Origin: a virus
Taxonomy: Duplodnaviria > Caudoviricetes
DNA: 64,000 nucleotides
Virus record (IMG/VR): IMGVR_UViG_3300020036_009553
Location: 1 to 64,000 of that record
Reading direction: 5' to 3' (one strand)
Shown: positions 37,508 to 57,930 of the stretch, piece by piece
Position numbering within the stretch: position 1 is the stretch's first letter
Layout: every line of letters begins with the position of its first letter
The notes under the pieces: generated by a model
Seen by the model: the letters and a program-made list of their open reading frames with translations, nothing else
Databases searched by the model: none
What the model was told of the DNA's origin: nothing
Translations under genes and position numbers: made by a program

Positions 37508-37515
37508 TGCCGCCC

Positions 37516-38154
37516 GCCCGGGTGGTGAAATCGGTAGACACAAGGGACTCAACAGGGTCACTAGCGAAAAATGAATTGGTAGCCAGAAAACGTTGATATA
37601 TTATGATCAGCTAATCCAGGCGTAACAAGTCAAGGGAAACCCGCTAGTAGTATTTCCGTAAATTCGGCGAACGCTAAAACAAGCAGACGGCAAGGCATCT
37701 CGGTAAGAGCAAGGGACGAGGAAATAGTAACACTCGTGGTTAAATCTACTTATTGAGATGGTTAAAACTAGAATGCTTGTTATGCCAACGCCGAGCCGAG
37801 CCTGTACTTTGAACGGTGGACCGTTTAACTAAGTACCGTAGTGAGGATGCAACTGGCTTACTTAAATGTAAACAATGATAGTATCTGTGCCAGTAGAACC
37901 ATAAAGGTAAGTATAGGAAGGTGTAGAGACTAGAGACGGAATGCCTGGGCGGTAGGCTTACGGGATGCTGATATAATCCCGCCGAGTAACCGTATGGTGA
38001 TAGCATAGTCCAGACCACGAACAATCGCTCACGATTAGAAAACGAGTGAGTAATAGCTAAAGCAACGGGTAGCTAGATTGGCGGCGAAAACCGAAGTGGT
38101 AAGTAAAATCCCTCGCCGTAAGGCATGCGGGTTCGATTCCCGCCCCGGGCACCA
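37516..38154 (+). tRNA. tRNA-Leu(TAA) with group I intron; exons 37516-37549 and 38104-38154
   Basis: GCCCGGG/CCCGGGC-A-CCA; AGGGA-CT|TAA-AA-TCCCT; long variable arm. Confidence 0.9.
37550..38103 (+). ncRNA. group I self-splicing intron (554 nt, no evident ORF)
   Basis: Exon ends in U, intron ends in G; P-like AAATTCGGCGAA, Q-like AACGCCGAGCC, R GAAGGTGTAGAGACTA, S CATAGTCC. Confidence 0.85.
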
Positions 38155-55224: not shown

Positions 55225-55629
55225 ATGAAGATTTGTACAAAATGTAAAGTCCTTAAAGGTTTAGACGAATTTCATCGAAGCTGTAAGGGAAAACTGGGTG
55301 TTCAGCCTGCGTGTAAAGAATGTATGAACGCTGCTTACACCATTTCTCGTAACAAAAAGCGTCAGCACTACCAGGAAGTTGGGTACGCACGTAATAGGCT
55401 CGTAACAACGAAAATTGAAGAATATAAAGCAAGTAAGGGATGTACGATTTGTGGGGAGATGGATCCTTGTTGTATCGATTTTCATCACACAGACCCCTCC
55501 AAGAAAGAAAATGCGATTTCAAATATGAGGCACTGCTCTTGGGATACTGTTCTGGTTGAGGTCGCAAAGTGTATCCCGCTTTGTCGCAATTGTCACGCAA
55601 AAGTTCACGCAGGAAAATTGAAGTTATAA
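55225..55629 (+). CDS. freestanding HNH endonuclease with N-terminal zinc ribbon
   Basis: CTKC, CKEC, CTICG..DFHH...KCIPLCRNCHAKVH; TATAAATA just upstream. Confidence 0.8.
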   Translation: MKICTKCKVLKGLDEFHRSCKGKLGVQPACKECMNAAYTISRNKKRQHYQEVGYARNRLVTTKIEEYKASKGCTICGEMDPCCIDFHHTDPSKKENAISNMRHCSWDTVLVEVAKCIPLCRNCHAKVHAGKLKL

Positions 55630-55708
55630 CGGAATGTCGCCTAGTCAGGTTATGGCACCTGCTTTGGGAGCAGGTATAACGAGAGTTCGAATCCCTCCAT
55701 TCCGACCA
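55630..55708 (+). tRNA. tRNA-Pro(TGG)
   Basis: CGGAATG/CATTCCG-A-CCA; CCTGC-TT TGG GA-GCAGG. Confidence 0.9.
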
Positions 55709-55733
55709 ATTGATTTTTATGAAAGGAGTTAAA

Positions 55734-55892
55734 ATGAAAACTTACTTGGTTGCTATGGCGTGTGTTGTCCTGATGGCATCCAATGCTGCATTTGCTTATA
55801 CCGCTGCGATGGGGGATTTTAGCCGTCCCGGGCAGTATTGTACTACATCGTGTAACCAATACACCAATCAGTGTACCACCTACTGTCGATAA
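55734..55892 (+). CDS. small secreted Cys-rich peptide 1
   Basis: AAGGAG RBS; signal peptide ending AFA; mature part has 4 Cys. Confidence 0.7.
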   Translation: MKTYLVAMACVVLMASNAAFAYTAAMGDFSRPGQYCTTSCNQYTNQCTTYCR

Positions 55893-55914
55893 TTTTTCCT
55901 TGAAAGGATTCAAA

Positions 55915-56076
55915 ATGAAAAACGTAATGCGTCTGGTTATTTTGGTGATTTGTTTGGGAAGTAATGTTGCTCCTTCCTTTGCTGGGAATTGTGACTACTC
56001 ATGGCAAACTGCATCAAATGGATCCTCATGTGGCGGTCGCGCCGCTGATCAACGTCCTGGTGGGAAATTTCAATGA
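55915..56076 (+). CDS. small secreted Cys-containing peptide 2
   Basis: Signal peptide ending SFA; GNCDYSWQTASNGSSCGGRAA. Confidence 0.7.
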   Translation: MKNVMRLVILVICLGSNVAPSFAGNCDYSWQTASNGSSCGGRAADQRPGGKFQ

Positions 56077-56195
56077 AATTGACGCTGCTTGTTGTGCTGC
56101 TGTTTTCGCTGGGTCCTGCGTTTGCGTATCAAAAGGACGGGTGTCCTTGTTATGATAAGCCGTATTTTCCCAACTGTATTTGTAGCAAAAAGTAG
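56073..56195 (+). CDS. small secreted Cys-rich peptide 3 (not in ORF track)
   Basis: MKLTLLVVLLFSLGPAFA-YQKDGCPCYDKPYFPNCICSKK; ATGA overlap. Confidence 0.65.
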   Translation: MKLTLLVVLLFSLGPAFAYQKDGCPCYDKPYFPNCICSKK

Positions 56196-57238
56196 TTGAC
56201 ATTGAAGAGAAATTGACGTATAATGATCTTCATTGAATGAGAGATAAATTGGTTACGATAGAGCCTGATTCCACCACCGAGTGGATAGGGCCAAGAAGTC
56301 CGCAAGGACAGTATGCTAATCAACAATAAACCAAAATGTTTTTGTAGTAAAAAAGTAGTTGTCTTAACAAAGGAAAAGCAGTATAATGATCTTGTTGTTG
56401 AGGGAATCAGGAAATAGAGTGAATTACGACGGAGAGCAGCCATGTACTTTTGCCAGGCATTCCGATCCACTTGATCCTGATTCAATAGTTAAAATGGTGA
56501 TTAGACATTCTAATTAGCCACCAGGAGGTGAGGCACCGATGGGCAGTTAACTTGAGACACTTTAAAATATAGATAATAGTTAATTAAAGCGATTCACCCC
56601 AAGAGGAATCGGCCTCTTGGGGAACCCACCTGAGATGTCAATAATTAAAAAAGTTTCAGTTGTTGACATTTGATTCAAAATGTAGTAAAATGTACTTGTT
56701 GTTGAGAGAGAAGTAAACGAACACAAATAATAACACCGGTCGGCGCATGGCCATTATACGACAGCCCAATTGCCACCGTTATGTTATGTGTATCGTCAAG
56801 GCTTCGTTAACCTTTAACATAAGTAAAAGTTACTTTAATGAACCGCCAGGAGGTGAGGCAAAAATGATTTAAGATCCAAATATAATGTAAGTTTATTATA
56901 GAGGATTAATAATTGTTACGCTTACGACTGTAGTGAATGGTGAAAGCAGGTAACTACACGAGTGGCTCTGGGAAACAAGGACAGACAGAATGCTGTCCGA
57001 AGAAGGGATGGAACGATTGAGAAATGGTTCCATGTGTGAAGAGCGTGAGGAGGGGCTACTTCACAAATTCTCTGAAAAATCCTTGATCGTCAGTTGAGGA
57101 TGCTCCGGAAGTACCTGGTGGTAGAAACTTCCGTGTAATTATTTCTTTAACAAAAGAGATAATATTGGTCAACCACATCCGAATTCATGGTTTGAGGGGT
57201 GGTAGTAGCGACAAATCGCTCCCATCCCTCTCTTTTTT
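56196..57238 (+). ncRNA. promoter-driven, ORF-free, hairpin-rich block (candidate ncRNAs and minigenes)
   Basis: Three sigma70-like promoters, many stems, 3' terminator. Confidence 0.5.
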
Positions 57239-57303
57239 GTTGACATTATCGCCGATACGTTGTATAATGATCTTCATCAGCTGACAACACGAGGAGAAAG
57301 AAA

Positions 57304-57930
57304 ATGCAATTGTACACTATCGCAGCTCAAAGCAAGTACATGCTGTTCATTGAACAAATCGTCGACATTGAAGATGCTGGTGACGATTTCATTACGGCTG
57401 AAGAGATGTGCGAAATGACGGGCGAAGAGTTCAACGAAGCACGTAGGTATTACTTTGATGATCGTGTCTTTCGTCGTGATGCGATTAAGGAGGCACTCGG
57501 TGTTCTTGCTGACGAGATTCGCAAAACAGGCAAAAAGTCAGTTCTTATCAAAGATGATGAGTTGCTGGAGGTGTTTAAACAAGGGTATTCAATTTCTGAA
57601 TTCGCTGAAGGTTTTCGTCGTGTTGGTAACCGCTTGTTTTTACAAGAGAAAAAGCCAAATGGCCCCAAAAAGGCTAATATGAATGTGTTGGCTTATCGTG
57701 TACAACAAACTGTCAATAACGGCAACAAGTACGAGATCGAAATAAAGTATGCAAGTCATGACGTTCCTGGTACAATTGCGTTGTGCAAGAAGCTGGTTTC
57801 ATGGGAAGATATCTTGTGGGAAGACAACGGGTACAAAAACGTGAATGACGAAACGATCGGTTTTTGCAAGCAGATTTGGGACAATCCCAACATTTTCAAT
57901 ACTGCCAAAAAAGAAGCATCGCCCACTTGA
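57304..57930 (+). CDS. hypothetical protein
   Basis: Promoter cassette and GAGGAG RBS. Confidence 0.7.
   Translation: MQLYTIAAQSKYMLFIEQIVDIEDAGDDFITAEEMCEMTGEEFNEARRYYFDDRVFRRDAIKEALGVLADEIRKTGKKSVLIKDDELLEVFKQGYSISEFAEGFRRVGNRLFLQEKKPNGPKKANMNVLAYRVQQTVNNGNKYEIEIKYASHDVPGTIALCKKLVSWEDILWEDNGYKNVNDETIGFCKQIWDNPNIFNTAKKEASPT

What the first reader, a model, noticed from the sequence alone, without database searches (positions are those of the whole stretch)
56495..56872. Two start-stop minigenes behind an identical, maximal Shine-Dalgarno
Seen: CC(A/G)CCAGGAGGTGAGGCA occurs twice, each right after a hairpin. In both, AGGAGGTG is followed 8 nt later by ATG: ATG GGC AGT TAA (56539-56550) and ATG ATT TAA (56864-56872). 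I noticed no equally strong SD on the protein genes. Known: lambda bar minigenes (ATG ATA TAA) cause peptidyl-tRNA drop-off and tRNA sequestration. Inference: promoter-driven RNAs that trap ribosomes or specific tRNAs to reshape host translation, or ribosome loading that protects the downstream RNA.
Basis: partly seen in the sequence, partly recalled or inferred. Interest (0 to 1): 0.75.

Follow-up and report, generated by a model that had tools for sequence, protein, structure and literature searches.

The report
Ribosome-docking micro-ORFs on phage non-coding RNAs
Two related, protein-less early RNAs of an uncultured large phage each carry the strongest ribosome-binding site in the genome followed by a start codon and an almost immediate stop. 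They look built to hold a host ribosome rather than to make a product, but this rests on two copies in one genome and is untested.

Summary
CC(A/G)CCAGGAGGTGAGGCA occurs at 56518-56535 and 56843-56860 and nowhere else. AGGAGGTGA occurs only at these two sites in the 128-kb phage record. Each site follows a small hairpin and is followed by ATG GGC AGT TAA or ATG ATT TAA. Predicted pairing to the 16S tail is -16.2 kcal/mol, against a best of -11.8 and a median of -6.2 for 61 promoter-driven genes.

Both sites lie in a 1-kb ORF-free block with three consensus promoters and one terminator. The two units share only the promoter and start box, the 15-mer and the ATG. The 3-nt spacer and everything else have diverged. 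That is the pattern expected of a selected ribosome-binding site.

My best reading (0.4) is a ribosome dock that shields or organises the downstream non-coding RNA. Published mini-ORF sites that block RNase E are the closest precedent. A lambda-bar-like tRNA trap is less likely, because AUU is the phage's own commonest Ile codon and no Pth gene is seen.

This scan has noted analogous, but not sequence-related, minigene-capped RNAs in other uncultured phages.

The parts
56196..56224 (+). Promoter A (TTGACA-17-TATAAT, 12/12). It starts the ORF-free block and its RNA probably reads through into unit B.
   Evidence: no terminator is seen before promoter B
56359..56387 (+). Promoter B (TTGTCT-17-TATAAT)
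   Evidence: D1 repeat family of promoter units
56391..56405 (+). 5' box of unit B (CTTGTTGTTGAGGGA), the initial transcribed sequence. It matches unit C at 14 of 15 positions.
56403..56483 (+). Long irregular hairpin of unit B. Its sequence is unrelated to the hairpin of unit C.
56496..56519 (+). Short hairpin directly before the SD box of unit B (-7.6 kcal/mol)
56518..56535 (+). SD box B, CCACCAGGAGGTGAGGCA. It has 9 nt complementary to the 16S 3' tail and can form a 4-bp hairpin (CACC/GGUG) with an AGGA loop.
56539..56550 (+). Micro-ORF B: ATG GGC AGT TAA (Met-Gly-Ser-stop)
56597..56622 (+). G+C-rich 10-bp hairpin after micro-ORF B. It has no U-tract, so it is probably a stabilising or processing hairpin rather than a terminator.
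56663..56691 (+). Promoter C (TTGACA-17-TAAAAT)
56695..56709 (+). 5' box of unit C (CTTGTTGTTGAGAGA)
56710..56805 (+). Long irregular hairpin of unit C
56821..56835 (+). Short, weak hairpin before the SD box of unit C
56843..56860 (+). SD box C, CCGCCAGGAGGTGAGGCA. The A-to-G difference from box B keeps the small hairpin pair (A-U becomes G-U).
56864..56872 (+). Micro-ORF C: ATG ATT TAA (Met-Ile-stop). It sits at the base of an A+U-rich three-tier hairpin (56863-56917).
56920..57193 (+). Multi-hairpin non-coding RNA downstream of micro-ORF C, the probable protected payload
   Evidence: z -3.3; the + strand folds 22 kcal/mol better than the - strand. No Rfam match.
57194..57238 (+). Intrinsic terminator (long G+C stem followed by U6). 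It closes the block and abuts the -35 of the next gene's promoter.

Best explanation
The two sites are real, selected, maximal-affinity translation-initiation sites placed on dedicated non-coding early RNAs. A host 30S or 70S ribosome docks on AGGAGGUGA plus AUG. Because the frame closes after 2-3 codons, the ribosome never moves away from the Shine-Dalgarno tether. It terminates and can rebind at once, so the site stays occupied almost all the time. The peptide itself (Met-Gly-Ser or Met-Ile) is irrelevant. The parked ribosome acts in cis. It is a bulky, persistent roadblock that shields the RNA downstream from 5'-end-dependent RNase E scanning and possibly governs how that RNA folds. In unit B the protected RNA is the A+U-rich tail and G+C hairpin, plus any read-through into unit C. 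In unit C it is the ~370-nt multi-hairpin RNA that ends at the terminator. What the sequence shows: the motif, its uniqueness, its strength, the micro-ORFs, the promoters and terminator, the absence of coding potential, and the RBS-like conservation pattern between the two copies. What is inferred: transcription, ribosome binding, and the protective consequence.
For: (1) AGGAGGTGA is used only at these two sites in 128 kb. It is 4.4 kcal/mol stronger than the best SD of 61 promoter-driven genes.
(2) Conservation between the two copies is RBS-shaped. The 15-mer matches 15/15, the spacer length is fixed but its letters match 0/3, and the ATG matches 3/3. The ~100-130 nt upstream and the sequence downstream are no more alike than shuffles.
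(3) The peptides differ (MGS against MI). If anything is selected, it is the act of initiation and not the product.
(4) The sites lie in a 1-kb block without coding signal. No ORF in it matches Pfam or PHROGs. The block has three consensus promoters and one strong terminator. The RNA after micro-ORF C is significantly structured and strand-specific.
(5) There is experimental precedent. In E. coli a ribosome on a short uORF impedes RNase E scanning. The effect scales with SD complementarity to 16S rRNA, hardly depends on uORF length, and is limited by how long the ribosome stays at the start site (PMC9943677). That paper also cites the mini-ORF RBS that protects an EHEC T3SS mRNA. Strong SDs stabilise RNA even without productive translation (PMC7509114; PMC3997798). 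A maximal SD with a 2-3-codon frame is the design that would maximise persistence.
Against: There are only two copies in one metagenomic phage record. I found no homologue anywhere, so there is no independent conservation or covariation. The host is unknown, so the presence of RNase E and the exact anti-SD are assumed. The SD and AUG are predicted to be about half paired in the full transcripts, so they are not conspicuously exposed. Unit B has little obvious payload to protect. The closest relative available (L014, whose flanking gene is 69% identical) has ordinary gene cassettes in this position, so the element is not needed by the lineage.
Confidence: 0.4

Rival explanations
1. The sites are bar-like trans-acting minigenes. 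Abundant early RNAs are translated over and over, and fMet-Ile-tRNA and fMet-Gly-Ser-tRNA drop off. Ribosomes, Pth capacity or specific tRNAs are soaked up, and host translation is damped or reshaped.
For: The layout matches lambda bar and engineered minigenes: SD, AUG, 1-2 sense codons and UAA, with an A-rich spacer in unit C. Shorter minigenes inhibit more, and they act through peptidyl-tRNA accumulation (PMC2490762). The units sit behind strong early promoters.
Against: Known toxicity depends on scarce tRNAs (AUA, AGA) and on limiting Pth. Here the last sense codons are AUU, the phage's own top Ile codon at 34 per 1000, and AGU. A trap would therefore starve the phage as well. The phage's two tRNAs are Thr and Pro, which do not match. 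No Pth or RF-1-domain gene is present in the 128 kb held. This reading also does not explain why micro-ORF C is welded to a 370-nt structured RNA.
Confidence: 0.12
2. The conserved 18-mer is an RNA structure or recognition motif that does not work through the ribosome. It would be a 4-5-bp hairpin (C[A/G]CC / GGUG) presenting an AGGA loop to a protein (a CsrA/RsmA-type or phage RNA-binding protein, or a GGAG-cutting nuclease) or to another RNA. The ATG and the stop would then be incidental.
For: The flanks CCRCC and GGCA are conserved although SD pairing does not need them. The single A/G difference keeps a base pair. GGA in a hairpin loop is the classic CsrA/RsmA site (from established knowledge, not tested here). 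A hairpin loop at 57114-57127 is complementary to CC(A/G)CCAGG over 8-9 bp.
Against: The ATG is conserved at an exactly fixed distance across a fully diverged spacer. There is no GGA enrichment in the block, 18 seen against 17.8 expected, so it is not a Csr-type sponge. No RegB homologue was found. The loop complementarity is weak by shuffling, p about 0.03-0.09. No convincing complementary target exists elsewhere in the phage.
Confidence: 0.18
3. The sites are evolutionary leftovers. This phage shuffles promoter-leader-RBS modules between single-gene cassettes, and B and C are such modules whose protein cargo was lost or replaced. The tiny frames would then have no function.
For: The relative L014 has different cassettes at this position. 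In A+T-rich non-coding DNA, stops soon after an ATG are common, about 0.14-0.20 per site.
Against: The standard cassette module (CATCAACTGACAAC...AAGGAG) is different. The perfect SD is used only on these two RNA units. The units have diverged beyond recognition except for the boxes, and neutral decay would not spare a 15-mer and an ATG. No parent gene with this start region exists in any collection searched. The downstream sequence is structured RNA ending in a terminator, not decayed coding sequence.
Confidence: 0.15
4. The micro-ORF is a translation-dependent switch. Initiation melts the helices in which the AUG is embedded (56863-56917 in unit C, and the AUGGG/CCCA closing helix in unit B). 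The downstream RNA would then adopt its active fold only when ribosomes are available. This is comparable to position-critical leader minigenes.
For: In both units the AUG is predicted to lie at the base of the downstream domain. Translation of the two-codon LEE1 leader minigene controls the neighbouring downstream element in a position-dependent way (PMC3262186).
Against: The predicted helices are weak, A+U-rich and unsupported by covariation. Local z-scores are near zero. There is no downstream gene to regulate.
Confidence: 0.08

Closest known systems
Mini-ORF or uORF ribosome-binding sites that block RNase E (EHEC T3SS mini-ORF of Lodato et al. 2012, as cited in PMC3997798 and PMC9943677; the uORF reporters of Richards and Belasco, PMC9943677)
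   Same: A strong SD and a start codon open a frame of a few codons whose product is irrelevant. The bound ribosome protects the RNA downstream. Protection scales with SD complementarity to 16S rRNA and with ribosome persistence.
   Different: Those sites sit in 5' leaders of protein-coding mRNAs. Here the RNA downstream has no gene at all. The SD is longer (9 nt) and the frame shorter (2-3 codons) than any tested there. The element is duplicated on dedicated phage transcripts. Protection here is inferred, not measured.
Phage lambda bar minigenes and engineered 2-8-codon minigenes (PMC2490762)
   Same: SD, AUG, one or two sense codons and UAA on a phage transcript. The two-codon AUG AUU UAA differs from bar's AUG AUA UAA by one letter.
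   Different: Bar toxicity rests on a scarce tRNA and limiting Pth. Here the codons are common ones that the phage itself uses heavily. The bar sites are not stand-alone promoter-to-terminator RNAs and have no maximal SD. Toxicity was not tested here.
Two-codon minigene in the EHEC LEE1 leader (PMC3262186)
   Same: A translated AUG-codon-stop frame in a long untranslated RNA, acting through its translation and position and not through its product.
   Different: It tunes expression of the adjacent ler gene. Here no gene follows.
SD-type 5' mRNA stabilisers of Gram-positive bacteria and their phages (STAB-SD; the SP82 polypurine stabiliser; ermC, aprE and hbs leaders; reviewed in PMC7509114, PMC3997798, PMC5737220)
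   Same: A strong SD-like polypurine element, in SP82 on a phage early RNA, stabilises downstream RNA by holding a ribosome without any need for a protein product.
   Different: Those act against the 5' exonuclease RNase J1 in Firmicutes and often need no start codon. Here the start codon is conserved. The phage's ordinary weak SDs and its rIIA relatives (phages of Vibrio, Aeromonas and Acinetobacter) point to a Gram-negative host.
Minigene-capped folded RNAs and tandem minigene RNA arrays noted earlier by this scan in other uncultured phages (AI notes e1-5825695, e1-5763600, e1-5659846, e1-5350510, e1-5693671)
   Same: These are protein-less phage transcripts that open with a strong RBS and a 2-4-codon frame placed directly before a folded RNA.
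   Different: They have no detectable sequence likeness to this locus. Their folds (double pseudoknots, 102-nt periodic arrays) are not seen here, and I could not obtain their sequences to test membership.

Membership tests
Lambda bar-type toxic minigene | SD, AUG, one to a few sense codons and a stop | tested here: met
Lambda bar-type toxic minigene | The last sense codon is read by a scarce tRNA whose sequestration causes the effect (AUA, AGA) | tested here: not met
   AUU is 52% of Ile codons and AGU is 19% of Ser codons in 82 phage ORFs. Host tRNA abundances are unknown.
Lambda bar-type toxic minigene | Growth arrest and peptidyl-tRNA accumulation in Pth-limited cells, reversed by Pth or tRNA | not testable with these tools
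   Needs experiments. No phage Pth or RF-1-domain gene is present in the 128 kb held.
Mini-ORF or uORF RBS acting as an RNase E roadblock | A short frame with an SD strongly complementary to 16S rRNA, upstream of the RNA to be protected | tested here: met
   -16.2 kcal/mol and 9-nt complementarity, the strongest in the genome. Structured RNA lies downstream.
Mini-ORF or uORF RBS acting as an RNase E roadblock | The host degrades RNA by 5'-end-dependent RNase E scanning | tested here: inconclusive
   The host is unknown. The best rIIA matches are phages of Vibrio, Aeromonas and Acinetobacter, and the phage's own genes use weak SDs. Both fit a Gram-negative host.
Mini-ORF or uORF RBS acting as an RNase E roadblock | Downstream RNA is measurably stabilised in a way that depends on the SD | not testable with these tools
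No experiments were possible.
SD-type 5' stabiliser of Firmicutes (STAB-SD, SP82) | Acts in a Gram-positive host against RNase J1, and no start codon is required | tested here: not met
   The ATG is conserved at fixed spacing. AGGAGG is not enriched on the coding strand, 27 against 22, unlike phages of strong-SD hosts.
CsrA/RsmA-titrating sponge RNA | Many GGA motifs at high density, mostly in hairpin loops | tested here: not met
   18 GGA in 1010 nt against 17.8 expected. Only the SD box presents AGGA in a loop.
Any Rfam 15 family | Covariance-model match | tested here: not met
   Nothing at the gathering threshold. Nothing credible up to E = 10 in 55600-57400.
Minigene-capped folded phage RNAs noted earlier in this scan | RBS and a 2-4-codon frame directly before a conserved pseudoknotted fold, with sequence or model similarity | tested here: inconclusive
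   The layout is similar for unit C. There are no shared words with any earlier window. No pseudoknot could be tested without homologues.

The most novel reading that the evidence does not exclude
These RNAs belong to a wider, undescribed class of phage-encoded ribosome-docking RNAs. Such dedicated early transcripts would use a maximal SD and a micro-ORF to seize host ribosomes. They might act in trans, sequestering or re-programming 30S/70S pools during take-over, or they might deliver an attached structured RNA to the ribosome. Unrelated phage lineages would have invented this repeatedly, as the other minigene-capped RNAs seen by this scan suggest.
Probability: 0.15. Interest if true: 0.8.

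Novelty: new variant of a known kind. Interest (0 to 1): 0.5.

Why it matters
If the reading is right, a phage uses the host ribosome as a protective or organising protein for its own non-coding RNAs, and not as a protein factory. The design it uses, a maximal SD with an immediate stop, is what recent RNase E scanning work predicts to be the most persistent roadblock. That would extend mini-ORF protection from mRNA leaders to stand-alone regulatory RNAs. It would also give a simple sequence signature for finding phage non-coding RNAs in metagenomes. Together with the other minigene-capped RNAs seen in this scan, it would point to a recurrent phage strategy that no RNA catalogue yet holds. If the bar-like reading were right instead, it would be the first case in which minigene toxicity looks purpose-built.

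Tried and rejected
**Homologue searches, all empty.**
- blastn of the 1.15-kb block, and of each 48-nt box, against 50,697 GenBank phages.
- The 18-mer in IMG/VR gave only an unrelated high-GC actinophage gene start, L001.
- The 5' box, a gap and the SD as one pattern gave 10 chance hits.
- The SD followed by a minigene gave ordinary gene starts.
- A 24-nt pattern in 185,579 prokaryote genomes gave none.

**Relatives found through the flanking 208-aa protein.**
- The protein has relatives at 32-69% identity.
- L014 has different cassettes upstream of that gene.
- The distant jumbo phages G001-G003 lack the element. The two AGGAGGTGA sites in G003 lie in antisense or coding context. G002 has nothing comparable.

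The seven contigs that carry the identical neighbour protein could not be fetched.

**Readings tested and dropped.**
- Hidden coding. ORFs on both strands of the block have no Pfam or PHROGs match. The 41-aa frame that ends at micro-ORF C has no counterpart in unit B.
- Stop-codon read-through or recoding. Only TAA-rich frames result, and the rest of the genome uses the standard code.
- A Csr sponge. There is no GGA enrichment.
- RegB processing. No homologue was found.
- rrn/nut-type boxA antitermination. CTTTAACA occurs twice in unit C but five times on the + strand overall, which is weak.
- The SD box pairing with the loop at 57114-57127. Shuffles give p 0.03-0.09.
- The SD box pairing with other phage transcripts. 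The longest perfect complement is 10 nt, as chance gives.
- Homology between unit A and the RNA downstream of unit C. The alignment is not convincing.
- A shared structure for B and C. Only the small SD hairpin emerges, and single-sequence z-scores of the leaders are modest at -1.4 and -1.5.

Full report
**Context.** The window is the first 64 kb of a 128,415-bp IMG/VR virus record estimated to be 57% complete. It is a large phage of about 42% G+C. Its rIIA-like protein is only 35% identical to those of Vibrio, Aeromonas and Acinetobacter T4-type phages. From about 41 kb to 66 kb the + strand is an array of one-gene cassettes. Each has a near-consensus sigma-70 promoter, and 11 of them match TTGACA-17-TATAAT perfectly, all on the + strand. 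Each also has a short stereotyped leader (CATCAACTGACAAC...AAGGAG) and a small gene. The two tRNA genes, Thr(UGU) and Pro(UGG), lie just upstream of the finding.

**The observation.**
- CC(A/G)CCAGGAGGTGAGGCA occurs at 56518-56535 and 56843-56860, and no shuffle gave a match.
- Its core AGGAGGTGA is a 9-nt perfect complement of the 16S 3' tail. It occurs nowhere else in the 128 kb on either strand.
- ATG follows at the same distance in both copies. It opens ATG GGC AGT TAA and ATG ATT TAA.
- A hairpin precedes each box. It is solid in unit B and weak in unit C.
- The predicted SD/anti-SD duplex is -16.2 kcal/mol at both sites. For 61 genes defined by an upstream promoter, the median is -6.2 and the best is -11.8.

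**What surrounds it.**
- Positions 56196-57238 form a 1-kb stretch with no + strand ORF of 45 codons or more. None of the small ORFs on either strand matches Pfam or PHROGs.
- The stretch holds three promoters: A at 56196, B at 56359 and C at 56663. It has one strong intrinsic terminator at 57194-57238, which abuts the promoter of the next gene.
- Unit B is a promoter, a 15-nt start box, an ~80-nt irregular hairpin, a short hairpin, the SD box, the micro-ORF, an A+U-rich tail and a G+C hairpin without a U-tract.
- Unit C has the same order of parts. After its micro-ORF comes a ~370-nt chain of hairpins. This folds better than shuffles (z -3.3 for 56920-57240; z -4.6 for the whole unit). It also folds 22 kcal/mol better on the + strand than on the - strand.
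- Rfam 15 has no match, even at E = 10.

**Are B and C related, and what is conserved?** A global alignment shows identity concentrated in three places: the promoter, the start box CTTGTTGTTGAG(G/A)GA at 14/15, and TAAT.A.CC.CCAGGAGGTGAGGCA...ATG. The leaders between the boxes, and the sequences after the stops, are no more alike than shuffled sequence (p 0.93 and 0.07).

Within the second box the 15-mer matches 15/15, the three spacer letters match 0/3 (CCG against AAA) and the ATG matches 3/3. A conserved SD, a fixed spacer length with free spacer letters and a conserved start codon are the classic pattern of a ribosome-binding site under selection. Recent gene conversion would have copied the spacer as well, so this does not look like conversion. 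The two peptides differ, so no product is conserved.

The start box is best read as part of the promoter unit, a purine-rich initial transcribed sequence. The same 12-mer follows good promoters in front of a tRNA or small non-coding RNAs in a few unrelated IMG/VR phages. That is a weak enrichment, and I only note it.

The extra conserved flanks of the SD (CCRCC and GGCA) allow a 4-bp hairpin with an AGGA loop, at -5.0 and -4.6 kcal/mol. The A/G difference between the copies preserves a pair. This may simply present the SD locally, and it is far weaker than the SD/anti-SD duplex.

**Mechanism.** I take the sites to be true ribosome docks.
- In E. coli a ribosome on a short uORF impedes RNase E, which scans from the 5' end. 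The effect grows with SD complementarity to 16S rRNA and is nearly independent of uORF length. It is limited by how briefly the ribosome stays, because trapping it at the start codon with retapamulin increases protection (PMC9943677).
- That paper, and PMC3997798, cite a natural case in which the RBS of a mini-ORF protects an EHEC T3SS mRNA from RNase E.
- Strong SDs stabilise RNAs without productive translation in ompA, ermC, aprE, gsiB and an SP82 phage RNA (PMC7509114).
- A 9-nt SD and a 2-3-codon frame is the arrangement that should keep a ribosome tethered and maximise occupancy. This last step is my inference.

**Why a bar-like trap is less likely.** A bar-like trap remains possible. Minigenes inhibit more the shorter they are, and they act through peptidyl-tRNA accumulation (PMC2490762). 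But their effect rests on scarce tRNAs and limiting Pth. Here the last sense codons are AUU, which is 52% of the phage's own Ile codons, and AGU. The phage's tRNAs do not match these codons. No Pth or RF-1-domain gene is seen in the 128 kb held, though 43% of the genome is missing.

**Other rivals.**
- A non-ribosomal hairpin motif cannot be excluded with two sequences. However, the block is not GGA-enriched, no RegB-like nuclease is present, and complementarities to other parts of the block or of the genome are at chance level.
- An empty-cassette relic fits the modular genome and the absence of the block in the relative L014. It does not explain why only the boxes survived divergence. It also does not explain why this unique SD is reserved for the two RNA units.

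**Comparative evidence, and why it is thin.** I found no homologue in GenBank phages, IMG/VR or 185,579 prokaryote genomes. The adjacent 208-aa protein has relatives at 32-69% identity, but the reachable contigs lack the element. The case therefore rests on two paralogous copies.

**Relation to earlier notes of this scan.** Other first readers flagged the same stretch (e1-5959882, e1-5959869, e1-5959883). More interesting are the follow-up reports on other genomes. They describe protein-less phage RNAs that open with a strong RBS and a 2-4-codon frame before a folded RNA, and tandem minigene arrays. These are unchecked AI notes and share no sequence with this locus. I use them only as a hint that the layout recurs. 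They led me to PMC2490762 and PMC3262186, which I read myself.

**Verdict.**
Ribosome loading is plausible and is my preferred reading, in its cis-protective form, at 0.4. Any ribosome-dependent function stands at about 0.6. The tRNA trap is disfavoured.
- The element is a new variant of a known kind, namely mini-ORF ribosome-binding sites or minigenes, here placed on stand-alone phage non-coding RNAs.
- Interest is moderate at 0.5. The design is striking and easy to test, but it is so far supported by a single genome.

Noticed in passing
window 37511-38153 (+): This looks like a split type-II tRNA, Leu with anticodon UAA if the halves are joined. A 5' half runs up to ...GGGACT and a 3' half runs from TAAAATCCCT... 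to ...GGGCACCA. About 560 nt separate them, starting after a U and ending in G, which are group-I-intron-like boundaries. ARAGORN and Rfam miss it. Rfam hits only the T-arm and acceptor as a 'tmRNA 3' end' (17 bits).
   Followed up: partly
G000:C1:67300-67400 (beyond the window): An iteron-like array of TTCCA(C/A)ATTCCAA(T/C)TTAACA repeats lies after a promoter-driven leader, next to an A/T-rich stretch. It could be a replication origin or a protein-binding array.
   Followed up: no
window 56812-56819 and 57145-57153: CTTTAACA and CTTTAACAA, the core of rrn-type boxA, occur twice inside unit C. There are only five copies on the + strand of the 128 kb, so this is too weak to call.
   Followed up: partly
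window 57114-57127: The hairpin loop ACCUGGUGGUAGAA is complementary over 8-9 bp to CC(A/G)CCAGG of both SD boxes. This could be a long-range or trans contact that masks the SD, but shuffles give p 0.03-0.09.
   Followed up: partly
L079 (- strand, about 7633), L089/L107, L103: In unrelated IMG/VR phages the same 12-mer CTTGTTGTTGAG follows good TTGAC(A/T)-17-TATAAT promoters. In those phages it stands in front of a tRNA, a ~150-nt terminator-ended RNA, and a long leader. It may be a recurrent initial transcribed sequence of phage stable-RNA promoters.
   Followed up: partly
window 56885-56890: A second ATG directly followed by TAA (a start-stop) sits in the apical loop of the A+U-rich hairpin that contains micro-ORF C. 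No SD precedes it.
   Followed up: no
G002 (IMGVR_UViG_3300024983_000001, 257 kb; loci L121-L133): This distant relative, 35% identical in the flanking protein, carries about 49 tRNA genes in several clusters and a tmRNA gene by ARAGORN. It has no counterpart of the SD/micro-ORF units.
   Followed up: partly
window 55734-56195: Three tandem small ORFs with signal-peptide-like N-termini and several cysteines lie directly upstream of the block. Other first readers have already noted them.
   Followed up: no
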